The notes beneath the pieces were generated by a model. It made no database searches, was not told the origin of the DNA, and saw nothing but the letters and a program-made list of their open reading frames with translations. Both the position numbers and the translations under genes were made by a program. 64,000 nt of DNA, from the sequence record MT446386.1. The stretch is one strand, 5' to 3'. Positions 45,194 through 58,961 of this stretch are shown piece by piece; within the stretch, counting starts at the first letter, position 1; the number at the start of each line of letters is the position of its first letter. Origin of the DNA: Escherichia virus TH06.

Positions 45194-46735
45194 TTAGTAA
45201 CTCTGATTCCATCTGCTTACGTTTGCCTCATACAGAGAAGCACTTCCGTAGCTAACGTCATGCTTAGAGCGACCACGATGTGTAACAGAGCACGCTGAAT
45301 AGCGCATTGCATCCATTAAGTCATCATGTTCTTTAATAATCTTACCAACCTTACGGTGATATCTAGCTTTCTCTTCGAATAGCTTAGCATTAGCGGCTGT
45401 GTTAAAGATTTTAAAGCGTCCACTCATCATTCTTTCTCGGATATCTGTGATTCCCGGTTCTACAAAGAAGTTCTTTTTACCATCCATTCCAATTTTGTTG
45501 TAGAAGGTCTCACTCTGTACGTTAACTCCTGCATTCTTATAGAATTGAGCAACAGATGAGCCACTACCTTTCTCAATATTGTCCGCATCGTGCGGTAGGA
45601 TGACAGGAATCCACTGACCACGACCATTAATAGCTGGAGCATGATACACTGGAGTAAAGCCACCTTCTTTATATGAGTCGTAAACATAGATAGTATCCGT
45701 GTTTGCATCGTAAGCTGTCCAAACAGCAGCAGTTGGGTGATCAATACCAATATCAATTGCACAGACACGTTTCCACGTATCAGGAATTTCGAATGGTTCA
45801 CATTTAATTGTGTCATCCGATACATCATAAATCAAACCACTTCCTAACAATGGCATACCTTTCGAACGCATCTCTAACTGCCACGCTGGAATACCTTCAG
45901 TCATATCTTTTATATCTTGGTCAGTGATATGTCCACCTAGGTCTGCATGAGCATCCCACCAAGAAGCGTTCTGGAAATATAGAGAACCTGTGTTCTCATC
46001 CCCTTCACCTTTCATAAATTTATCTACCAGTTCAGTTAAACCGTTCTCTGGTGTAGCTGTAATTGTAACTAGACCTTTAGTTGTGAGTGTACGTGTGACG
46101 CACTGTGCGAATATAGCCATAGACTCGTATGGATCTTCTTCGTCTAACCAAATGTAGTCAACTGTTGCACCCATCAATGTGTGTTCACCCTGTTGGGTTG
46201 AACGGAATTCTAATGTACTTAAACCGTCAAACTCCCCTCTCTCATTTTGATGTTTGATTTGTACGATTTGAAGTTTGTTACCATCTCGTTCTATCGTGTC
46301 AATGACGATAGCATCACGAGGAATGACACCTGTCCCCAATAAGTTTGTATCCTTTCCGATAGGTGTACCAAACAATTCCTTTTGCAATACTTTCCTTGTG
46401 GAATCCCCTGTAATACCAACTGCCCATGCTAAGATAGGTCTTTTAAATTTATATCCTGTCCACCAAGTTGGGTAGCGACCTGTGACATGACAAGCAAACT
46501 CGTATGCCTCGCTATAAGATTTACCAACACGGTTCGCTGCACACAAGAATCTAAAGCGATGCTTCAATCCTGCTGCATAAAATTTCTTTTGGAAGTCATA
46601 CGCCTTGAAAGACAAAATCTTATTATACTTCCTCCATTGGTCACGCTCTTTCAACATATTCAATAGTGCTTTCTTTTCCTCTACACTAAGATTGTTACCA
46701 GTTAGAGCTTCATAAATTTGTTTATCTAATGACAT
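45194..46735 (-). CDS. terminase large subunit
   Basis: P-loop ANRVGKSYSEAYEF near N-terminus, 513 aa, position upstream of portal. Confidence 0.75.
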   Translation of the reverse strand: MSLDKQIYEALTGNNLSVEEKKALLNMLKERDQWRKYNKILSFKAYDFQKKFYAAGLKHRFRFLCAANRVGKSYSEAYEFACHVTGRYPTWWTGYKFKRPILAWAVGITGDSTRKVLQKELFGTPIGKDTNLLGTGVIPRDAIVIDTIERDGNKLQIVQIKHQNERGEFDGLSTLEFRSTQQGEHTLMGATVDYIWLDEEDPYESMAIFAQCVTRTLTTKGLVTITATPENGLTELVDKFMKGEGDENTGSLYFQNASWWDAHADLGGHITDQDIKDMTEGIPAWQLEMRSKGMPLLGSGLIYDVSDDTIKCEPFEIPDTWKRVCAIDIGIDHPTAAVWTAYDANTDTIYVYDSYKEGGFTPVYHAPAINGRGQWIPVILPHDADNIEKGSGSSVAQFYKNAGVNVQSETFYNKIGMDGKKNFFVEPGITDIRERMMSGRFKIFNTAANAKLFEEKARYHRKVGKIIKEHDDLMDAMRYSACSVTHRGRSKHDVSYGSASLYEANVSRWNQSY

Positions 46736-48535: not shown

Positions 48536-49219
48536 CCCCGTAAGCTTTGCGTATCCGATAGTACTCATGATCACATTTGAATTGCTTAATGATTAACTTA
48601 ATTTTCCACATAAGTTCTCTTTCAACCTTATATATAAGAGTTTAAAATTCTGATTTGACTGAGTAGGGCTAGCCGCTTCCCGCGCGTTTCCTAAAAGGGG
48701 GGAGTCCTCATTTAAAAAAGGGTTATTGGCAATGCCTTTACCTTCCTTTTCAACGTTCCACTTTTCCCCGTGCCTACTCCCCGTTATTCTTTCCCCGTGT
48801 ATACCATCCTATTCATTAGCTACCCGTTTATTTAGTACCCCTTTAAAGAGTGAGAGAAAGGCTATACTCTGATAACGGTCTGTTAAGGCGTGATAATAAC
48901 AGGTCTAATAATACCCCTAGTTACTACCCCATTCCCCCATAGTTACGTTGATAATAGTTTCAATAGTAATGATTATGAGTGCAATAATGATATATGTATT
49001 AATTAAGTGGATGATTGTGTTTCTTTTATTCTTTTCTTTTTCAGCGTGCCTTTGTGAGCGTAGCGAACGTCTTTGATGTTTGAGTTATACAATTATTTAA
49101 GTGGTATATTATTACCGCACTATCTTGCTATGTTTCCCCGTGGTCTGTTCTGCGGTTGTGTGTTCCCCGTTTGCCCTGGTCTGTTGGTCTGCTACCCGTA
49201 GCACCAGCGTAACACCCGT
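48536..49219. repeat. region enriched for the pentamer CCCGT (about 11 copies in under 1 kb, mostly as TCCCCGT) plus GGTCTGTT direct repeats and an AT-rich tract
   Basis: Counted by eye; strongly over-represented. Confidence 0.4.
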
Positions 49220-49336
49220 AGGATTAGTGTTATAAAGTAACAATAGCTAGTAAGCTGATTCTCTGAGTATGGAAAGTTTAGTAAATTAAATTCCTTTAGT
49301 TTTCAGTGAGTTATAAGAAAGTTAGAAAATAAATGG

Positions 49337-49364
49337 TTGACAGGTTTTTCCTTTATTATATAGT
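49337..49364 (+). promoter_or_regulatory. sigma70-type promoter P0 (TTGACA, 16 nt spacer, TATAGT)
   Basis: Consensus -35 and near-consensus -10 about 45 nt upstream of gene 49409. Confidence 0.5.
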
Positions 49365-51287: not shown

Positions 51288-51363
51288 GGTTACTATTTCT
51301 GCTTTATTGTGCCGTGGTCATGCCTATGGTCATAATTTATCTGATACTTTAAAACCTTCCTAT

Positions 51364-51388
51364 AAGCCTCGCTATGAGGCTTTTTTCA
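51364..51388 (+). terminator. rho-independent terminator
   Basis: AAGCCTC-GCTAT-GAGGCTT followed by TTTTTT. Confidence 0.65.
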
Positions 51389-51591
51389 TTTCTAGGGTGA
51401 TTGTATGGCTTACTCCCTTTTAGCTCGCTACAGTGCGTTTCAGGCCGCTTATTATTGCTTTACAAGCCGTTTTCTATGATGTATCACGCGCCCCCGCTCT
51501 TTTACCTCCTGATTTCTTCCGGTGTCCTACCGACAATAAAATAAATTCCTTTATAAAACAGTGAGATGAAAAATAATTTGAAAAAAGGGTA

Positions 51592-51619
51592 TTGACATGA
51601 TTTTCCTTTATAGTAATAT
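51592..51619 (+). promoter_or_regulatory. sigma70-type promoter P1 (TTGACA, 16 nt, TAATAT)
   Basis: Consensus -35, A-rich upstream tract; homologous to P0 over about 60 bp. Confidence 0.5.
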
Positions 51620-51748
51620 GAATCCCGTAGTAAGCAGTAAGTAACAACAAGTAGTAAAAACTCCTCGATAGGTGATTAGCATCACGGTAAAAGGCTTCAA
51701 CGGGGAGCGGTAGGAATACCGACAGTAAGACGCACAATGAAGGTGCTA

Positions 51749-51762
51749 CGCTCTTTAAAAAT
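51749..51762 (+). repeat. conserved box CGCTCTTTAAAAAT, copy 1
   Basis: Exact 14-mer present 3 times plus one near-copy within 700 bp. Confidence 0.4.
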
Positions 51763-51797
51763 CAGGCTAGAAAGTGAAAATATTCTTAAAAAGAGTA

Positions 51798-51826
51798 TTG
51801 ACACCAGAAAAAGCCTGATACATAAT
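51798..51826 (+). promoter_or_regulatory. sigma70-type promoter P2 (TTGACA, 17 nt, CATAAT)
   Basis: Followed by GAGCACTCA, shared with P4. Confidence 0.5.
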
Positions 51827-51858
51827 GAGCACTCATTCAGCGATGAATCAAAACATCC

Positions 51859-51872
51859 CGCTCTTTAAAAAT
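51859..51872 (+). repeat. conserved box CGCTCTTTAAAAAT, copy 2
   Basis: Exact 14-mer. Confidence 0.4.
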
Positions 51873-52127
51873 ATGATTTGTCTTACAGGTGGCGGTAACG
51901 TCATTACTATAAGGCGCTTAGTTGATCGCTAGAATTGATTCCTGATTCATACGTGAATAGGCGGACGAAGAGCAACAAAATAAGCCTCATTTGTTCGATA
52001 CTTTCAAATGGTCGATGCTTGAAAGCGCACTAGATTCCTAAAAGACAAATCAGACTTATCATCTTGCCCTTTCGCAAAGATTCAAGCGAGATAAGGGAAC
52101 GGAATAAAAGAAGATGATAAAAAGAGT

Positions 52128-52155
52128 TTGACAAGCTAACACGATGTGTTAAGCT
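52128..52155 (+). promoter_or_regulatory. possible sigma70-type promoter P3 (TTGACA with weak -10)
   Basis: Consensus -35 after AAAAAGAGT, but -10 poor; box copy 3 lies 36 nt downstream. Confidence 0.3.
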
Positions 52156-52168
52156 GTAAATGCTCCAC

Positions 52169-52182
52169 CGCTCTTTAAAAAT
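52169..52182 (+). repeat. conserved box CGCTCTTTAAAAAT, copy 3
   Basis: Exact 14-mer. Confidence 0.4.
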
Positions 52183-52285
52183 ATGAATCATAAGTTTAAG
52201 CCTCACCGCTTAATCCTCAATCAAATAAAGCTGATTGATATATCCTCCCAATAGCGGGAACGACGAAAAAAGATTAAAAAAGTGG

Positions 52286-52314
52286 TTGACAGCGAAAACA
52301 ACATGATTCATAAT
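52286..52314 (+). promoter_or_regulatory. sigma70-type promoter P4 (TTGACA, 17 nt, CATAAT)
   Basis: Followed by GAGCACTCA as in P2. Confidence 0.5.
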
Positions 52315-52404
52315 GAGCACTCACTAAGCAAATCACCGCTTCAGTGAAAAGCGCAACAACGGCTAACAGTTGCATAGCGTGAGAAAGCACGCTGATAGGT
52401 TTAC

Positions 52405-52418
52405 CGCTCTTTAATAAT
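52405..52418 (+). repeat. conserved box variant CGCTCTTTAATAAT, copy 4
   Basis: 13/14 match. Confidence 0.35.
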
Positions 52419-53086
52419 TTAAACATTCTCCTATATCGGTTGAATATGCTTGATGATAATAACCATCGGAAAGCATACCAGATAAAACGGTGTAAGATTC
52501 TCTAAACTATCAGAGAAAACAATCTTACAATCCCTTGCTGGAAACGTCACCACTGATAAACGGATTCATTGAGTGTACGCAAAGACTTAAGCTAATCGCC
52601 CACGGTTAAGGGTAGCGGCGGTCATCGCTAACAAGGCGCTACAGTGAAAGAAGTTAATCAGGGTAGGCAAGCCCGAAGAATTAACGCTCAATTGAGAGCG
52701 GCGGGGAGTGGTTAAAAAGTGGCAAATTGCTATTTAACAATAAGGTTTAGTGTGAACGTTTACGATGTGAATGATTTGAGGCCACTATCGATGGCGTACA
52801 TAGTCAGTTTATGTAGTAAACTTGCCGAAAGATATAAAACGTCAGAACATTAGACGGTCAATGACTCTTTCACAATAGCATCCCGTTGTGGGCGATGGCT
52901 AGTGATTGAGAGTTGATACAAAAGGATAGGCGAGAGCGAAAGCAAAGTAGACGATATTGCCGACGGTTACAATAAACGTAACTAATTAGAGTCGGACGCA
53001 CTGCCTTATTGTGATGATTGATCATCGCTATCAGGTCGGCTTCGTTTATAGCGACTAATTAAAGATACCAGATGAAACATCACGGA

Positions 53087-53134
53087 TAAGGGGGCGGCAA
53101 GGTTAACTCCTGATAAGACCGCCCCGCTTATCAA
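53087..53134. promoter_or_regulatory. long imperfect palindrome GATAAGGGGGCGG...CCGCCCCGCTTATC with GATAAG repeats
   Basis: Read directly; about 100 nt upstream of gene 53236. Confidence 0.3.
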
Positions 53135-53235
53135 TAATTACTTAACAATGAGTGGTTATTGATAAGTTAATAGTGACTTAAACAAGCTCATAGAGAGCGG
53201 GGCAATAGCGCCCTTACAATTGAAAGGTGAATATC

Positions 53236-54135
53236 ATGGCTAAAGTTTTTACTCTGGTTAACGAATCTGGTTTTAATGCACTGGCTAACAACATTCGTAG
53301 CAATAACGCGGCGATCAAACAAGATGTCTCTAACTTCCTGTTAGGGCACTTACAGCACTTCCGCAGTAACGGTAAAAAGCTGGACGTATTGCAGACGGCG
53401 GTTGACTTCTTGTTAACTGAACGTTTTCGTGATATGGATGTGATTGCCACTGCAATTACTTTCTTAACTCCTATCAAGTTTAACACTGATGCGGCAAATG
53501 GTCGTAAAAAGTGGATTAATCTGGAAGGTGAGGCGAAAGCTAAAGAAGACGCGAAAGAAGCGCAAATTAAAACCAAAATGGAACAAAACCGCGCTCGCTG
53601 GTCAAACGCTTTCGAAAACTTTGCTTTAGGCCGTGAAATTGAAGTCGATAACCCTAACTTTTACAAGGGTTGCAATGACAATGTGGCGGCACACCTGCAA
53701 ATCCCGGCGAAAAACAAGGAAGACTTTAACCAAGATATTTACGCTTTGGTTGAACGCTTGAATGCAATCCGTATTGAAGCCAAATTACTGGCTGATGAGC
53801 GCAACGGTGCAACTAGTGATAACACTATCGCCCTGAGTGAAGAAGTAGGAAAGGTTAAGAAATCTTTTGATTCACTCATCAAGAAAGTCACGGCCTCAAC
53901 GGTAGCGATCTCTGATAACTACCTGATGAACGCATCAAGCAAGGAATTAGAATCACTCGATTCATACGCTGATGAAATGGAAAAGACTGTTGCAGCTATG
54001 CAGGAGAAGTTAGAAAGTCTGCGCGGTCGTATCTCTTCAACGGTTGCTACCCGTACCGAACAAGCTGCGAAAGCAGAAGAGGAAGAAGTATTGCGTAAAG
54101 CGGCTGAAATTATGGCGGCACGTCAAGCGGCATAA
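53236..54135 (+). CDS. hypothetical helical protein (299 aa)
   Basis: Start moved to ATG 53236 after GAAAGGTG; preceded by about 0.9 kb without ORFs. Confidence 0.5.
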   Translation: MAKVFTLVNESGFNALANNIRSNNAAIKQDVSNFLLGHLQHFRSNGKKLDVLQTAVDFLLTERFRDMDVIATAITFLTPIKFNTDAANGRKKWINLEGEAKAKEDAKEAQIKTKMEQNRARWSNAFENFALGREIEVDNPNFYKGCNDNVAAHLQIPAKNKEDFNQDIYALVERLNAIRIEAKLLADERNGATSDNTIALSEEVGKVKKSFDSLIKKVTASTVAISDNYLMNASSKELESLDSYADEMEKTVAAMQEKLESLRGRISSTVATRTEQAAKAEEEEVLRKAAEIMAARQAA

Positions 54136-54240
54136 GTAAGACAGTTTAAATAAACATAAGGTGCTATCTTAACGGGTAGCGCCTTTTCTTTTATCAGTGC
54201 ATTGATTCAGTGCATTAATCAAAGAATTTAATCAAAGGTG

Positions 54241-54465
54241 ATGATCATGTTAATTACGCATACCACGATTTATAGGAATCTTGTCAACGGTCAACATTAC
54301 CGCCTATCTAAAAAGTATGGCGTTGAATGTAAATGTGTTATTACCGGTGAATGGTATCCGTCACCAATGAAGATTGAAACGTTGGAACGTGAAGCGATCA
54401 GCTATATTATCACGCAAGAAACAACGTTAGGCCGTATCTTAAGAAAGTTGGGATTGAGAAAATGA
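54241..54465 (+). CDS. hypothetical protein (74 aa)
   Basis: Track ORF, first ATG. Confidence 0.4.
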   Translation: MIMLITHTTIYRNLVNGQHYRLSKKYGVECKCVITGEWYPSPMKIETLEREAISYIITQETTLGRILRKLGLRK

Positions 54466-54686
54466 TATTCAGTAGCAATTTTGGCAAGTGTCCTATTTGT
54501 GAGAAACATCGCAGCACGGGAAACCATCGCAAATGTAGTAAGATATTACAGCGCCAACGTGATAACAACCATTGGGATACTGTACACGCTAATCAGCGTA
54601 AAGAAGAAGTTAAAGAAATGGCTGTTAAAGCATCCTTTGCCCAATCCACCCGTATTGAACACATCCAAAGGTATCAAGCATTATGA
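54462..54686 (+). CDS. small Cys/His-containing basic protein (74 aa)
   Basis: CPICEKH...HRKC. Confidence 0.4.
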   Translation: MIFSSNFGKCPICEKHRSTGNHRKCSKILQRQRDNNHWDTVHANQRKEEVKEMAVKASFAQSTRIEHIQRYQAL

Positions 54687-54892
54687 TCACTAATATTTCA
54701 GAGTTTAAGAAAGCGCCTTCTCGTCTGTTAGGTCGTCGTGTTGTGTATCTTTATAGCAATAAAGGTAAAGCTACAACTGGACGAATTACAACAGTAAGTA
54801 GTGTTACTAAAGGTTTGCTCAAGTTATGTGTAGATATGGACGATGGTACAATCCTGCTACGCAGTTGGAAGTCGTTTAGTTTACTTGATTAA
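54683..54892 (+). CDS. hypothetical protein (69 aa)
   Basis: Track ORF, overlapping upstream stop. Confidence 0.4.
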   Translation: MITNISEFKKAPSRLLGRRVVYLYSNKGKATTGRITTVSSVTKGLLKLCVDMDDGTILLRSWKSFSLLD

Positions 54893-54961
54893 GTTGTTTG
54901 TTCAAGCCTATCACCTTGATGGGCTTGCCCGATATAACTTATCACTAAAAGGAATAAGATT

Positions 54962-55405
54962 GTGGCTAAATCAAAAATCAGCATGAAGGGCGGGCGTTGT
55001 TTTGCTATCTCTGAACTGGAGAAAGAGAAGCCAAAGGCAACCAATCACGTCAGCAAGCGTAGTTTAAAACGTCGTGCTGCAAAGGCTGAGGCTGAATCTC
55101 ATGTTCCTTCTAGTATACCTAAGCGCGTAGGCCATCGCGTTCATCGTGCTGATGCGTTATTGTTAGCTGATCATAAACGATCTTTGTTACAGAGCGGGGG
55201 CGCTAAAACAGAAGAAGAGAAGAAGTTAGAAATCTTCTGTAATGGTCGCACCCGTGGTAAACAGAAGTTTAAGGGTAGCACGAAAGACCCGCAGGCTTTC
55301 CCTAAGACAAGCCAATGCGCACCTGATGTTTTCTACGCAGACAGTAAACATAAATGGGGCGTTGAGAAATACATTGACCCCATCAAAGAGGCAAGGGTTA
55401 AGTAG
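54962..55405 (+). CDS. basic hypothetical protein (147 aa)
   Basis: GTG start after AAGGAA; K/R-rich. Confidence 0.45.
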   Translation: MAKSKISMKGGRCFAISELEKEKPKATNHVSKRSLKRRAAKAEAESHVPSSIPKRVGHRVHRADALLLADHKRSLLQSGGAKTEEEKKLEIFCNGRTRGKQKFKGSTKDPQAFPKTSQCAPDVFYADSKHKWGVEKYIDPIKEARVK

Positions 55406-55422
55406 TAGGAATATAGCCCCTC

Positions 55423-55439
55423 TTTTAGTACTATGACGC
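55423..55439 (+). repeat. conserved 17-nt motif TTTTAGTACTATGACGC, copy 1
   Basis: Identical 17-mer also at 62143-62159; contains palindrome TAGTACTA; followed by a hairpin. Confidence 0.4.
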
Positions 55440-55484
55440 TCTTTCTGTAGCGTCGTGCCCTCTCCCCATTTGAAGATTCCGCAT

Positions 55485-55507
55485 AGCCGCCTTTGAGCGG
55501 CTTTTTG
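55485..55507 (+). terminator. rho-independent terminator
   Basis: AGCCGC-CTTTGA-GCGGCT followed by TTTTT. Confidence 0.55.
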
Positions 55508-55569
55508 CGTTGCTGTAAGTGCATTTGCGAGTGTATTTATAGCAACGGTCATGTGTTGCTTTCAGGTTT

Positions 55570-55596
55570 GCCCCGGCTACGGCTGGGGCTTTTTTA
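55570..55596 (+). terminator. rho-independent terminator
   Basis: GCCCCGGC-TACG-GCTGGGGC followed by TTTTTT. Confidence 0.65.
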
Positions 55597-55644
55597 TGCC
55601 CGTAAAACAGGAGGTATCAAGTTCTGATAACAACGGCCCAGCTA

Positions 55645-56034
55645 ATGTTGACATTGACTATTTATTATGAGGCAGGGAATCAGCCAACCGCATGTAAGGC
55701 TTTAGTTGCGGATACCGTAATAAATAGAATGGCACAACGAAAACTGACCGCTGAACAGGTGATAAGACAAAAGAACCAGTTTGAGTGGATTCCGGTACTA
55801 TTAAAACAGGAGAAACCTTATAAACGTTATGTAAAGCTGATTCGTGATAAAAATCCGATGACTAAGCAAGCCATTGGAGAAAGCGAGCGGCTAGCTAAAC
55901 GTGCCCTTAAGAAGAATTATGTTCCGCTTTATAGTGGGACTTACTTTCAGAGTAAGAGCGAAGGGGTGCCAAAATGGTATGCCAATCCTATGTATTGTGG
56001 TGATTTAGTGTTCGATAATAGCTCTAGGGAATAA
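55645..56034 (+). CDS. cell wall hydrolase, SleB-like (Hydrolase_2-type) domain protein
   Basis: LTLTIYYEAGNQPTACKALVADTVINRMAQ...QKNQFEW resembles the SleB-family N-terminal signature. Confidence 0.5.
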   Translation: MLTLTIYYEAGNQPTACKALVADTVINRMAQRKLTAEQVIRQKNQFEWIPVLLKQEKPYKRYVKLIRDKNPMTKQAIGESERLAKRALKKNYVPLYSGTYFQSKSEGVPKWYANPMYCGDLVFDNSSRE

Positions 56035-56233
56035 TCTCTAGTGCCAGATTTAACAAACTAAATTCCTTTATAAACCAACCACTTAGTAAATTTATTGAAA
56101 AAGATGGTAGTATTCTGGGACTATGGGTAATGCTCTGTATATAGACCCTTTGAAAATTTCTTAGAAAATAAGTTTACTAAATATAACTTACTTAAATAAT
56201 ATTACTTTTAATCTCTGATAAAGGGTAAATAAT

Positions 56234-56530
56234 ATGACTTTAGAGGTATATAAATTCCTTTTTGTAAGCTGTTTAACTATCAGCGTTATAGGGTTTATTG
56301 TTCTCAGAAACAAAGCAGCAAGCTGGGAGAGAATGTATAAATCTCTAGTCCGAGTGGATGAGATGTATAATGAGAAAGTTAAAGTAACACTTAATGATCT
56401 TATTATGCAAGTTGAAGACAGAAATAAGCGTCTTCAGAACCTCAACCATGAAGTATTACGACTTGCTCGTGCTAATGAAGACTTGCGAGTAGCTATTGCT
56501 AAGCAGCAGGAGATTAACAGTGAAAGTTAA
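56234..56530 (+). CDS. membrane-anchored coiled-coil protein (98 aa)
   Basis: N-terminal TM FLFVSCLTISVIGFIVL then heptad-like region. Confidence 0.45.
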   Translation: MTLEVYKFLFVSCLTISVIGFIVLRNKAASWERMYKSLVRVDEMYNEKVKVTLNDLIMQVEDRNKRLQNLNHEVLRLARANEDLRVAIAKQQEINSES

Positions 56531-56756
56531 TATTAAATCTGATCGTACAATGCTTCGATTAAATAACATGAAGCCGGGGGTTCTGTTTGAGCGTAAAGAA
56601 TCCCTTTACATCAGAACCGACACATTGTACGCAGACAATTATGTCAACTGTGTTGATGTGGTAACTGGAAAGCTCATGCCTTTTAAACGGGATGAAGTTT
56701 GCCAAGTACGCAGTGATCTCCATATAACCAACATAGAGGCTAAAGATGAAGATTAA
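56520..56756 (+). CDS. small protein, paralog family C member 1
   Basis: GTG 56520 after AGGAG gives MKVNIK N-terminus like other members; shares G.VF...Y...V.L.TG pattern. Confidence 0.45.
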   Translation: MKVNIKSDRTMLRLNNMKPGVLFERKESLYIRTDTLYADNYVNCVDVVTGKLMPFKRDEVCQVRSDLHITNIEAKDED

Positions 56757-57003
56757 TCTTGAAGTAAATGAACCGTCTTTGTGTGTTGGTGATCTCAAAC
56801 TTGGGGATGTATTCCAAATCAGGGAAACACGAGCAGATTTCTACATGGTTGTTCAGCTATTTACCTCACAGATTGAAGAGACCAAGCCTTCTGATGGGGG
56901 TTGTGTCGTCCTTAGTCTGACAAATAAGCAAGTCCTTAAACTTAGCTCGAAAAGCAAGGTTGTTCTTCTTCATGATGTTGTTATTACTAACAAGGGCAAG
57001 TAG
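56746..57003 (+). CDS. small protein, paralog family C member 2
   Basis: MKINLE..., LKLGDVFQ...FYMVV. Confidence 0.5.
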   Translation: MKINLEVNEPSLCVGDLKLGDVFQIRETRADFYMVVQLFTSQIEETKPSDGGCVVLSLTNKQVLKLSSKSKVVLLHDVVITNKGK

Positions 57004-57222
57004 ATGGAAATTAAAGTAGTTGATTATCCTAAATATGCAAATGCAGAAGATGTTAAAGGTGGTGATGTTTTCTCTTACGACAGACGTTTCTGGCTGATGT
57101 TAGAAGATAAAACTCCCGATGGTTTATGTAAGGCCGCCAATCTGAACAGCGGTTCTGTTGAAGTCTTCGGTCTATCAACCACTGTTATGCCACGCCCTGA
57201 TCTGTGTTTATCCCAAAAGTAA
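57004..57222 (+). CDS. small protein, paralog family C member 3
   Basis: MEIKVV..., VKGGDVFS. Confidence 0.5.
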   Translation: MEIKVVDYPKYANAEDVKGGDVFSYDRRFWLMLEDKTPDGLCKAANLNSGSVEVFGLSTTVMPRPDLCLSQK

Positions 57223-57230
57223 CATCGACT

Positions 57231-57333
57231 TATAGCCCTTGTGTTTATCAGAGGGCTATGTGAGGGTGTTCCTCATTAACTTATTAATTCAGGCATATGC
57301 CACACCGCTAGGGAGAGCTTGCTCGAACATCCG
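57231..57333 (+). repeat. conserved intergenic element, copy A (hairpin ATAGCCC/GGGCTAT, then GCTAGGGAGAG and CTCGAACATCCG)
   Basis: Paralogous to 62693-62804; both follow a gene stop. Confidence 0.45.
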
Positions 57334-57580
57334 GTGTTAGACTAAAACCTGTTCAATTTCGGTAGACTTTCCACTACGTAGGGGTACGTATTGGTTTGGG
57401 ATTCAGGAGATCTCCTAGGGGTAGGAGGTCTTCACCAGTTGGGATAAGAGATAGCTCTAGAACCTGAACTCTTAGGCAGAGAGGGTCGGCAATGAGTACG
57501 CGGTCAGAATTAGCCTCCTGACTAGGGCTATCCCTTATATCAACTGGCAATAATGCCTCCACTAATAAAGAGAGAACGTT

Positions 57581-57721
57581 ATGAAGAAGTCAACCAAGCG
57601 TATGAACCGTCCTGAGCGTATGGATGCAGTAGCAAATGGTGCACTGAAGATCGAGTCTGCCATGCTGCGTCTGATGGGTAACATCCGTAAGCGTCAAGGT
57701 GGTTGGGTTTACAATAACTGA
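57581..57721 (+). CDS. small basic protein (46 aa)
   Basis: ATG 57581, no stops to 57721, followed by terminator; weak RBS. Confidence 0.35.
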   Translation: MKKSTKRMNRPERMDAVANGALKIESAMLRLMGNIRKRQGGWVYNN

Positions 57722-57730
57722 TTTAATAAA

Positions 57731-57764
57731 AGGCTGCCTAGAAATAGGTGGCCTTTGTTGTTTT
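57731..57764 (+). terminator. rho-independent terminator
   Basis: AGGCTGCC...GGTGGCCT hairpin (with G-U pairs) followed by TTGTTGTTTT. Confidence 0.5.
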
Positions 57765-58885: not shown

Positions 58886-58961
58886 GCGCTCTTAGCTCAA
58901 TGGATAGAGCAGTAGCCTTCTAAGCTATTGGTTACAGGTTCGAGTCCTGTAGGGCGCACCA
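58886..58961 (+). tRNA. tRNA-Arg (anticodon UCU)
   Basis: 76-nt cloverleaf: acceptor GCGCTCT/AGGGCGC, D-arm GCTC/GAGC, anticodon stem GTAGC/GCTAT with loop CTTCTAA, T-arm ACAGG-TTCGAGT-CCTGT, encoded CCA. Confidence 0.8.

What the first reader, a model, noticed from the sequence alone, without database searches (positions are those of the whole stretch)
51290..53235. 1.9 kb ORF-free region: four tandem sigma70-type promoters, a conserved 14-nt box (x4) and a ~0.9 kb leader without ORFs
Between the terminator at 51364 and the gene at 53236 I find no ORF over about 20 codons. Four near-consensus promoters (TTGACA at 51592, 51798, 52128, 52286, each preceded by an A-rich tract; P2 and P4 share CATAATGAGCACTCA) are interleaved with CGCTCTTTAAAAAT (51749, 51859, 52169; variant at 52405). 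The box sits at different distances from each promoter, so it is not simply part of them. Candidate roles: short phage RNAs with a common 3' or processing signal, an operator for a phage or host factor, an RNA polymerase sink, or an origin.
Basis: seen in the sequence. Interest (0 to 1): 0.7.

Follow-up and report, generated by a model that had tools for sequence, protein, structure and literature searches.

The report
Phage rRNA-operon-like leader: boxA plus giant RNA
The repeated 14-base box matches the host "boxA" signal that makes E. coli RNA polymerase resist premature termination, and the "empty" 0.9 kb behind it encodes a previously undescribed, elaborately folded ~800-base RNA at the head of this phage's early genes.

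Summary
The window is a phiEco32-like coliphage, and 51290-53235 is the spacer between phiEco32 genes 125 and 124.

- **Promoters:** already published for SU10 and phiEco32.
- **The box:** all four copies match the functional gamma-proteobacterial boxA consensus GYTCTTTAANA, the NusB/NusE(S10) site of rrn operons, lambda nut and T7. In 19 related phages there are 80 matches, all on the transcribed strand and all inside this spacer. The core never varies; the flanks do.
- **The leader:** a large structured RNA with 232 base pairs in two ~300-nt domains plus hairpins. Compensatory changes occur at 71 pairs in 19 phages and 156 in 27 sequences, far above shuffled and slid controls. It has no Rfam family, no conserved ORF and no E. 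coli homologue.
- **The cassette:** promoter, boxA, RNA, orphan gene 124, strong intrinsic terminator. It persists in metagenomic phages whose gp124 is only 46-70% identical.

Best reading: an rRNA-operon-like unit. BoxA recruits host Nus factors, so RNA polymerase can transcribe and fold a long untranslated RNA without Rho termination. The RNA's own job is unknown. Nothing was tested experimentally.

The parts
51364..51390 (+). Intrinsic terminator ending the upstream short early operon (genes 128-125)
   Evidence: Annotated as a terminator in SU10 (PMC4281155 S2 Table).
51592..51619 (+). Promoter P1 (TTGACA-16-TAATAT) with an upstream A tract
   Evidence: 10/12. Conserved in 6 relatives.
51749..51762 (+). 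boxA copy 1 (CGCTCTTTAAAAAT)
   Evidence: Matches GYTCTTTAANA (PMC5725501).
51798..51826 (+). Promoter P2 (TTGACA-17-CATAAT)
   Evidence: 11/12. Listed for SU10 in PMC4281155 S2 Table.
51859..51872 (+). boxA copy 2
51873..52120 (+). Optional structured RNA module B. It is closed by helix 51874-51884 / 42-52052 (i.e. 52042-52052), which starts 1 nt after boxA 2.
   Evidence: nearly invariant in 10 of 19 phages, with 7 of 760 cells unpaired. Cleanly absent in 9 others.
52128..52155 (+). Promoter P3 (TTGACA-16-TGT-TAAGCT: perfect -35, weak extended -10)
   Evidence: Listed for SU10.
52169..52182 (+). boxA copy 3, followed by a small hairpin module that is conserved in all 19 phages
52286..52314 (+). 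Promoter P4 (TTGACA-17-CATAAT), the universally conserved promoter of the cassette
   Evidence: Also present in the distant metagenomic loci about 100 nt upstream of the last boxA.
52376..52393 (+). Covarying hairpin NNGUG-AGAAAG-CACNN, 12 nt upstream of boxA 4 (the position that boxB occupies in rrn leaders)
   Evidence: AGCGTG/CACGCT, AGTGTG/CACACT, GAAGTG/CACTTC and GAGGTG/CACCTC variants.
52405..52418 (+). boxA copy 4 (CGCTCTTTAATAAT). In every relative it lies at a fixed distance from gene 124: -826 to -837.
52418..52716 (+). Structured RNA domain I, closed by the long-range helix 52418-52430 / 52704-52716
52717..53012 (+). Hairpin 52717-52735 plus structured RNA domain II, closed by helix 52737-52746 / 53003-53012
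53013..53214 (+). Row of 3' hairpins of the RNA, including 53091-53125 and 53132-53161
   Evidence: Helices 32 and 34 stay 98-100% paired across 27 sequences.
53236..54135 (+). Gene 124 (299 aa; orphan protein, phrog_13018), always co-transcribed with the RNA
54158..54195 (+). Strong intrinsic terminator directly after gene 124, conserved with covarying stems in all phages examined

Best explanation
The region is the non-coding head of the main early transcription unit of a phiEco32-like phage, and it is built like a bacterial rRNA operon.

1. A bank of strong sigma70 promoters (P1-P4) fires early in infection.
2. Each transcript soon carries a perfect host-type boxA (GCUCUUUAANA).
3. Inferred: NusB-NusE(S10) bind boxA and nucleate the Nus complex (NusA, NusG, SuhB) on E. 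coli RNA polymerase.
4. Inferred: the modified polymerase resists Rho. Rho would otherwise stop transcription of 0.85-1.6 kb of untranslated RNA.
5. Inferred: by holding the boxA-proximal 5' strand at the RNA exit, the complex also helps the long-range helices to form.
6. The cargo is a conserved ~800-nt two-domain structured RNA, plus optional upstream modules. Gene 124 and an intrinsic terminator follow it.

Shown here: the box is a perfect boxA under strict, strand-specific selection; the leader is a real structured RNA on the + strand; and the cassette promoter-boxA-RNA-gene124-terminator is conserved. Inferred: Nus binding, Rho evasion, and the RNA's role. My guess for that role is an abundant early RNA acting in trans or together with gp124, but it is unknown.
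For: **boxA identity**
- All four boxes match the published functional consensus GYTCTTTAANA (PMC5725501).
- There are 6 matches in the window against 0.53 expected.
- Copies in relatives are identical over 17-20 nt to the E. coli rrnB leader TGCTCTTTAACAATTTATCAG.
- Lambda nutL reads CGCTCTTAAAAAT. T7 has CGCTCTTTAACAA 63 nt after its third tandem early promoter.

**Selection on the box**
- The 19 spacers hold 80 consensus matches, all on the + strand. There are none elsewhere on + in 111 kb. The core is invariant while the flanks vary and the modules are shuffled.
- Eight distant loci each carry 1-3 copies on the + strand only, the last one 870-936 nt before the gene-124 homologue.
- The other early promoter (49337) has a 45-nt leader, translated genes and no boxA.

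**The RNA**
- 232 pairs, 98.8% of cells paired, and 71 covarying pairs against 32.8 +/- 3.3 in shuffles and 4-10 in slid controls.
- With 27 sequences, 156 covarying pairs against 84 +/- 5.
- 461 G-U cells against 18 A-C cells; alifold energy -233.8 on + against -149.1 on -.
- Single-sequence z-score -7.9.
- As conserved as gene 124 but without codon periodicity, and no conserved ORF.
- A long-range helix starts directly 3' of boxA 2 and of boxA 4.

**Precedent**
- BoxA protects long untranslated CRISPR transcripts from Rho (PMC7665894).
- rrn complexes depend mainly on boxA and deliver the 5' strand to its distant partner (PMC8632103).
Against: - There are no experimental data. Transcription starts are predicted, or taken from the SU10 table. 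Nus binding and Rho sensitivity are untested.
- The two primary phiEco32 papers could not be read, so prior mention of the box cannot be excluded.
- The RNA is G>C, 53% paired, and has no unpaired run longer than 15 nt. It may therefore be a poor Rho substrate even without boxA.
- From my own knowledge (Albrechtsen et al. 1990), rrn-type boxA complexes do not read through intrinsic terminators efficiently. BoxA alone therefore does not explain expression of the genes beyond the terminators at 54158, 55485/55570 and 57729.
- BoxA 3 lies only about 8 nt from the predicted start of P3.
- No boxC-like GU-rich element follows the boxes.
- Nus factors at boxA can also act negatively, as at suhB (PMC5725501).
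Confidence: 0.65

Rival explanations
1. The structured RNA, with boxA as its tether, is itself a cis-acting processive antiterminator. It would be a much larger analogue of HK022 put or B. subtilis EAR. It stays on the polymerase that made it and lets that polymerase pass the intrinsic terminators of the early region, without an N-like protein or with gp124 in that role.
For: - The layout promoter-boxA-RNA-first gene-terminator mirrors lambda PL-nutL-N-tL1.
- A strong terminator follows gene 124 in every phage, and the next gene has no evident promoter.
- Promoter-like sites are scarce downstream: 13 against 23.6 expected.
- Further terminators lie at 55485, 55570 and 57729.
- The 7-11 paper states that an antitermination strategy for such long early transcripts 'remains to be defined' (PMC8948821).
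- No known antiterminator protein was found among 20 early ORFs.
Against: - At 800 nt the RNA is about ten times larger than any known cis-antiterminator RNA.
- No Rfam match to EAR or any other family.
- gp124 has no ARM-like or other recognisable fold.
- Terminator efficiency in vivo is unknown.
Confidence: 0.2
2. The leader is only a long 5' UTR of gene 124. Its structure stabilises the early mRNA or tunes gp124 translation, and it has no independent function.
For: - No terminator separates the RNA from gene 124.
- RNA and gp124 always co-occur.
- RNAalifold pairs the bases just 5' of boxA 4 with the gene 124 Shine-Dalgarno region (helix 1).
Against: - Helix 1 has no covariation and is broken in several sequences: 84% paired in A2.
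- Maintaining 230 base pairs over this evolutionary depth is far more than known stabilisers or translational operators need.
Confidence: 0.15
3. The multi-copy boxA array on very abundant transcripts is a decoy. It titrates NusB/S10 (and SuhB) away from host rrn operons and contributes to host shut-off.
For: - Each phage carries 3-6 consensus-strength copies behind strong promoters.
- Several copies mimic the rrn flank as well.
Against: - Distant relatives manage with 1-3 copies.
- The last copy has a fixed position relative to the RNA, which argues for a cis role.
- From the literature, phiEco32 already has gp79 for shutting off sigma70 transcription (PMC8948821).
Confidence: 0.07
4. BoxA and Nus factors act negatively here, as at suhB. 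They would repress translation or promote Rho-dependent attenuation, limiting gp124 and early gene expression.
For: Nus factors bound at boxA repress suhB and other genes (PMC5725501).
Against: - In those cases boxA lies within about 50 nt of the start codon. Here the nearest copy is 830 nt away.
- Four tandem strong promoters argue for maximal expression, not restrained expression.
Confidence: 0.05
5. The boxes and spacer work at the DNA level, as an operator for a phage protein, a replication origin, an RNA polymerase sink or an injection-stop region.
For: - Non-coding DNA rich in strong promoters near a genome end resembles the T7 and T5 leading ends.
- The region lies about 3-4 kb from the right end of phiEco32.
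Against: - All 80 boxes are in one orientation and identical to the host RNA element.
- No DnaA boxes or iterons are present.
- The conservation pattern is G-U-tolerant, strand-specific base pairing, which DNA-level selection does not produce.
Confidence: 0.03

Closest known systems
E. coli rrn operon leader and spacer antitermination (boxB-boxA-boxC, rrn antitermination complex)
   Same: - Tandem strong sigma70 promoters with upstream A tracts.
- BoxA identical to rrn over up to 20 nt.
- A hairpin just 5' of the last boxA.
- More than one boxA per unit.
- BoxA immediately precedes a long-range helix that encloses a large untranslated structured RNA.
   Different: - Four boxA copies, each with its own promoter.
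- No boxC.
- The cargo is an unrelated ~800-nt RNA.
- The unit continues into protein-coding genes and lies in a virulent phage.
Phage T7 early region (promoters A1, A2, A3, then CGCTCTTTAACAA, then gene 0.3)
   Same: - A virulent podovirus with tandem host-type early promoters; AAAAAGAGTATTGAC is shared with P2.
- The promoters are followed by a consensus boxA before the first early gene.
   Different: - T7 has one boxA and a leader of about 110 nt.
- It has no large structured RNA.
- The T7 boxA is not annotated in the record, and I found no accessible paper that tests it.
Lambda nutL / N antitermination
   Same: - Promoter, boxA, first early gene, terminator.
- Box 1 and nutL share ATGAAGGTG...CGCTCTT(T)AAAAAT.
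   Different: - No boxB hairpin with a GAAGA-type loop 3' of the boxes.
- No N-like protein was recognised.
- The boxes carry the full consensus (CGCTCTTTA), not lambda's weakened CGCTCTTA.
BoxA-protected CRISPR arrays (Stringer et al. 2020, PMC7665894)
   Same: A boxA placed upstream of a long untranslated transcript to prevent Rho termination.
   Different: The cargo is a single ornate RNA rather than repeats. The phage also has multiple copies and multiple promoters.
Large ornate bacterial and phage RNAs (GOLLD, ROOL; PMC5737381, 10.1101/2024.12.08.627333)
   Same: - Size class of 600-800 nt.
- Multi-domain, covariation-supported structure.
- Association with phages.
- Unknown function.
   Different: - No covariance-model match.
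- Found in a virulent coliphage.
- Positioned as the 5' leader of an early operon behind boxA.
- Restricted to one phage lineage.

Membership tests
boxA (NusB/NusE-binding antiterminator RNA element) | Sequence matches the functional gamma-proteobacterial consensus GYTCTTTAANA | tested here: met
   4 of 4 boxes match. There are 80 of 80 matches in 19 relatives with an invariant core, and all 8 distant loci carry matches.
boxA (NusB/NusE-binding antiterminator RNA element) | Lies in the sense strand of a transcript, downstream of a promoter | tested here: met
   All copies are on the + strand, 40-190 nt downstream of TTGACA promoters. The promoters are listed for SU10. Transcription starts were not mapped here.
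boxA (NusB/NusE-binding antiterminator RNA element) | Single-stranded in the RNA | tested here: inconclusive
   The consensus fold leaves boxA 4 unpaired except for a weak, non-covarying pairing with the SD region. The other boxes were not rigorously tested.
boxA (NusB/NusE-binding antiterminator RNA element) | Bound by NusB-NusE, with boxA-dependent suppression of Rho termination | not testable with these tools
   Needs EMSA or ChIP and terminator read-through assays.
rrn-type nut-like site (boxB-boxA-boxC) | Hairpin 5' of boxA | tested here: met
   A covarying hairpin at 52376-52393 lies 12 nt upstream of boxA 4. This does not hold for boxA 3.
rrn-type nut-like site (boxB-boxA-boxC) | GU-rich boxC 3' of boxA | tested here: not met
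   The sequences 3' of the boxes are A/U-rich (TTTAAACATTC, ATGATTTG, ATGAATCA).
rrn-type nut-like site (boxB-boxA-boxC) | Precedes a long-range helix enclosing a large structured untranslated RNA | tested here: met
   Helix 52418-52430 / 52704-52716 starts at the last base of boxA 4. Helix 51874-51884 / 52042-52052 starts 1 nt after boxA 2.
Lambda-type nut site | BoxB hairpin with a GNRA-like pentaloop 3' of boxA, plus an N protein with an arginine-rich motif | tested here: not met
   No such hairpin follows any box. No N-like protein was found among gp124 and 20 early ORFs.
Known RNA families (Rfam 15, including GOLLD, ROOL, EAR) | Covariance-model match | tested here: not met
   Nothing at gathering thresholds except a tRNA elsewhere in the window. 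At E<=10 only miRNA and snoRNA noise appeared.
Conserved structured RNA (generic criterion) | Compensatory base changes above controls, strand specificity, no coding signal | tested here: met
Replication origin | DnaA boxes or iterons plus an AT-rich unwinding element | tested here: not met
   No DnaA box lies in the region. The only repeats are the promoters and boxes.

The most novel reading that the evidence does not exclude
A virulent coliphage carries a mimic of a host rRNA operon. Consensus boxA elements hijack the ribosomal antitermination and RNA-chaperone machinery to make a large ornate RNA of a new class. That RNA, alone or as an RNP with the orphan protein gp124, either reprograms RNA polymerase to run through intrinsic terminators over tens of kilobases (an RNA-based, N-independent processive antiterminator) or acts in trans on the host early in infection.
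Probability: 0.3. Interest if true: 0.85.

Novelty: new variant of a known kind. Interest (0 to 1): 0.75.

Why it matters
- phiEco32-type phages are a studied model for phage control of E. coli RNA polymerase (own sigma factor gp36, inhibitor gp79), and they are used in therapy collections. How their very long early transcripts avoid termination has been left open. The 7-11 paper says so explicitly for its own phage.
- A consensus boxA array gives a directly testable answer, using standard E. coli nus, suhB and rho genetics.
- Separately, an ~800-nt RNA with 150+ covarying base pairs in a plaque-forming coliphage is a rare, genetically tractable entry into the biology of large ornate RNAs. Most of those come from uncultured or hard-to-manipulate organisms and still lack known functions.
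- It also shows that 'ORF-free spacers' in phage genomes can hide major RNA genes.

Tried and rejected
- **Rfam:** gathering thresholds and E<=10 found no family.
- **tRNA/tmRNA scan:** none in the region.
- **Host origin or mimicry:** blastn against 5,426 E. coli genomes found no match.
- **Origin hypothesis:** no DnaA boxes or iterons.
- **Hidden small proteins:** no conserved ORF.
- **gp124 function:** no hit in Pfam, PDB sequences, Foldseek PDB or BFVD. The AlphaFold model is good (pLDDT 82), so gp124 is an orphan fold.
- **Antiterminator among downstream early proteins:** PHROGs recognised nothing.
- **Salmonella phage 7-11:** it has its own ~1.05 kb ORF-free region before its first early gene. 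That region has no boxA and no nhmmer similarity, and its gp151 is unrelated to gp124.
- **IMG/VR scan:** a conserved 24-mer found only 5 contigs, 4 of them known isolates.
- **Primary phiEco32 papers:** Savalia 2008 and Pavlova 2012 are not held.
- **Literature searches:** phiEco32 + boxA, Kuravirus + RNA-seq and T7 + boxA returned nothing relevant. One broad search was uninformative.
- **Covariance model:** not built. The RNA exceeds the 400-column limit, and nhmmer plus MAFFT already recovered the distant homologues.
Full report
**What the window is.** The region 51290-53235 matches 96-100 phage records, all E. coli or Shigella podoviruses of the phiEco32 group (Gordonclarkvirinae: Kuravirus, Suseptimavirus, Nieuwekanaalvirus). 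Identity is 97% to TH38 and 93% to phiEco32 and SU10. In phiEco32 it is the unannotated spacer between genes 125 and 124, about 3-5 kb from the right genome end, and it is read leftward in that record.

**Checking the observation.** All stated coordinates hold.
- The terminator hairpin lies at 51364-51382.
- TTGACA lies at 51592, 51798, 52128 and 52286.
- P2 and P4 score 11/12 against consensus and P1 scores 10/12. P3 has a perfect -35 and only an extended -10, TGT-TAAGCT.
- The box is exact at 51749, 51859 and 52169 and has one change at 52405. All four copies are on the + strand.
- Allowing up to 2 mismatches gives 5 matches in the window against 0.73 expected.
- Mechanical ORFs of up to 47 aa on + and 87 aa on - exist, but none is conserved.
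- Substitutions in the leader lack the every-third-base pattern seen in gene 124.

[quoted passage not shown] Its S2 Table lists the equivalents of P2, P3 and P4 (PMC4281155). The promoter array is therefore not new. I could not read Savalia 2008 or Pavlova 2012. No held paper contains both 'phiEco32' and 'boxA'.

**The box is boxA.**
- All four copies are perfect matches to GYTCTTTAANA, the functional boxA consensus derived for gamma-proteobacteria by Baniulyte et al. (PMC5725501).
- BoxA is the single-stranded RNA element bound by NusB-NusE(S10) (PMC3177189).
- The E. coli rrnB leader reads TGCTCTTTAACAATTTATCAGAC. Lambda nutL reads CGCTCTTAAAAATTAAGCCC. T7 has CGCTCTTTAACAA 63 nt after A3, the last of its three tandem early promoters.
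- Some copies in relatives are identical to rrnB over 17-20 nt, flank included: Bas88 and the metagenomic loci L029 and L034.
- Across 19 phage spacers there are 80 consensus matches, all on the transcribed strand. None occurs elsewhere on that strand in 111 kb, and 4 occur on the other strand.
- The nine core bases are invariant in 80 of 80 copies, whereas the bases on either side vary freely and whole promoter-box modules are gained, lost and shuffled.
- The other early promoter of this phage (49337) drives translated genes through a 45-nt leader and has no boxA. BoxA therefore goes with the untranslated RNA, not with early promoters as such.

**The 'leader' is a large structured RNA.** An alignment of 19 phages (A1, window 52396-53245) gives an RNAalifold structure of 232 pairs in 37 helices.
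- Consensus energy is -233.8 kcal/mol, and 98.8% of cells are paired.
- 71 pairs carry compensatory double changes, against 32.8 +/- 3.3 in column shuffles (0 of 500 reach 71). Shifting partners by 1-3 columns gives 4-10 such pairs and 34-47% pairing.
- The signal is strand-specific: 461 G-U cells against 18 A-C cells, and the minus strand folds to only -149.1.
- The single-sequence MFE is -255.6 kcal/mol with z = -7.9.
- The architecture, in order: boxA 4; domain I (52418-52716, closed by a 11-pair long-range helix that begins at the last base of the box); a hairpin; domain II (52737-53012, closed by another long-range helix); a row of hairpins to 53214; then the Shine-Dalgarno sequence of gene 124.
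- The upstream segments are structured as well. A 250-nt module after boxA 2 is closed by a helix that starts 1 nt after the box. It is present and nearly invariant in 10 of 19 phages and cleanly absent in 9.
- The boxA 3 - P4 - boxA 4 stretch is universal and has covarying hairpins. One of them lies 12 nt upstream of boxA 4, where rrn leaders carry boxB.
- There is no Rfam family, no tRNA and no E. coli homologue.

**Depth and context.**
- gp124 (phrog_13018, function unknown) occurs only in the same ~97 phage records. The large protein collection also holds homologues at 46-70% identity on metagenomic phage contigs.
- Eight such loci were fetched. In the loci with enough upstream sequence there are few or no called genes for about 3 kb upstream of the gp124 homologue. 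Each has 1-3 boxA matches on the + strand only, the last one 870-936 nt before the start codon.
- In the three loci checked, a P4-like promoter (TTGACA-17-CATAAT/GATAAT) lies about 100 nt upstream of that last box.
- All eight have an nhmmer-detectable homologue of the RNA, with E-values from 6e-104 to 4e-14.
- In the 27-sequence alignment, the structure projected from A1 keeps 90% of cells paired. 156 of 232 pairs carry compensatory changes, against 84 +/- 5 in shuffles and 64-94 in slid controls.
- A strong intrinsic terminator (11-12 bp stem plus T run) follows the gene-124 stop codon in all but one of the 16 phages examined (L033 lacks a clear T run). Its stems covary, and the next gene follows with no evident promoter.
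- The conserved unit is therefore promoter(s) - boxA - ~0.85 kb RNA - gene 124 - terminator.

**How it most likely works.**
- From established knowledge: boxA RNA binds NusB-NusE and nucleates a complex with NusA, NusG and SuhB that protects polymerase from Rho on untranslated RNA. Formation of the rrn complex depends mainly on boxA. The complex holds the 5' nut-like element at the RNA exit, so the adjacent strand can be 'delivered' to its distant partner (PMC8632103).
- The same device protects long untranslated CRISPR transcripts (PMC7665894).
- The phage unit has every sequence-level ingredient of that system: strong tandem promoters, consensus boxA, a long untranslated RNA, and long-range helices starting right after the boxes.
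- I therefore read it as an rRNA-operon-like unit that borrows the host Nus machinery (confidence 0.65).
- What the RNA does once made is not shown. Its size, the strength of its promoters and its strict linkage to gp124 suggest an abundant early RNA, or an RNP. A purely cis role as a 5' UTR is possible.

**Open problem and rival.**
- From my own knowledge (Albrechtsen et al. 1990), rrn-type complexes are poor at reading through intrinsic terminators.
- Yet the early region has terminator-like hairpins at 54158, 55485, 55570 and 57729, and fewer promoter-like sites than chance.
- No N- or Q-like protein was recognised, and gp124 is an orphan fold.
- The RNA itself, or the RNA with gp124, may therefore be the missing antiterminator. 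This would be a put/EAR-like mechanism on a much larger scale, in a lambda-like layout (PL-nutL-N-tL1).
- For the related phage 7-11, the authors state that an antitermination strategy 'remains to be defined' (PMC8948821).
- 7-11 has its own ~1 kb ORF-free leader, but with no boxA and no similarity to this RNA.

**Verdict.** The promoters were already known. The box is a new example of a known element (boxA) in a phage group where I found no report of it. The leader is a new structured-RNA family. The combination is a new variant of boxA/Nus-protected non-coding transcription. All functional steps are inferred from sequence and remain to be tested.

Noticed in passing
window 51737-51762 vs lambda nutL (L004 719-760, minus strand): The bases just upstream of boxA 1 read ATGAAGGTGCTACGCTCTTTAAAAAT. 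Lambda nutL reads ATGAAGGTGACGCTCTTAAAAAT. The shared 9-mer ATGAAGGTG lies outside boxA and may reflect common ancestry or an unrecognised functional flank.
   Followed up: partly
window 51495-51504: A boxA-like variant, CCGCTCTTTTACCTCC (2 mismatches to the consensus), lies between the gene-125 terminator and P1. It is conserved in several relatives (TH38, MN05, EcoN5, O18-011, IMEP8, NJ01). Its role is unknown.
   Followed up: no
L022 (Salmonella phage 7-11, NC_015938 88864-89916, minus strand): 7-11 has its own ~1.05 kb ORF-free stretch before its first early gene (gene 151). That gene also starts ...TATCATGGCTAAA. There is no boxA, no nhmmer similarity to the Kuravirus RNA, and gp151 is not similar to gp124. 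Only 3 distinct relatives exist, so structure was not tested.
   Followed up: partly
L028, L029, L031, L032, L034, L035 (metagenomic phage contigs): Distant relatives have few or no called genes for about 3 kb upstream of the gp124 homologue. They seem to lack the gene 128-125 operon. The part upstream of the first boxA was not analysed and may hold further RNA modules.
   Followed up: partly
window 53236-54135: gp124 gives a confident AlphaFold model (pLDDT 82; helical with a small sheet and a long C-terminal helix). It has no structural neighbour in the PDB, and in BFVD it matches only its own family.
   Followed up: yes
window 54158-57756: Several intrinsic-terminator-like hairpins lie on the + strand (54158, 55485, 55570, 57729) inside the early gene block. 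Sigma70 promoter-like sites there are fewer than in shuffled sequence (13 against 23.6).
   Followed up: partly
window 48700-49330: An ORF-free, repeat-rich stretch (CCCCGT-type motifs) lies between the minus-strand genes and the early promoter at 49337. It is probably the genome terminus or terminal repeat, so the window is a permuted assembly relative to phiEco32.
   Followed up: no
window 51680/53078, 52073/52578, 52090/53085, 52337/52637, 52475/53065: Short 13-15 nt motifs recur between the upstream modules and the large RNA, for example ATACCAGAT[A/G]AAAC and GATAAGGG. This hints that the modules arose by internal duplication.
   Followed up: no
window 58886-58961: A tRNA-Arg(TCT) gene lies within the early region.
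   Followed up: no
window 29371 and 45328: Two further matches to the boxA consensus (GTTCTTTAATA) lie on the + strand. At 45328 the only long ORF overlapping the site is on the minus strand; the context of 29371 was not examined. They are probably chance.
   Followed up: no
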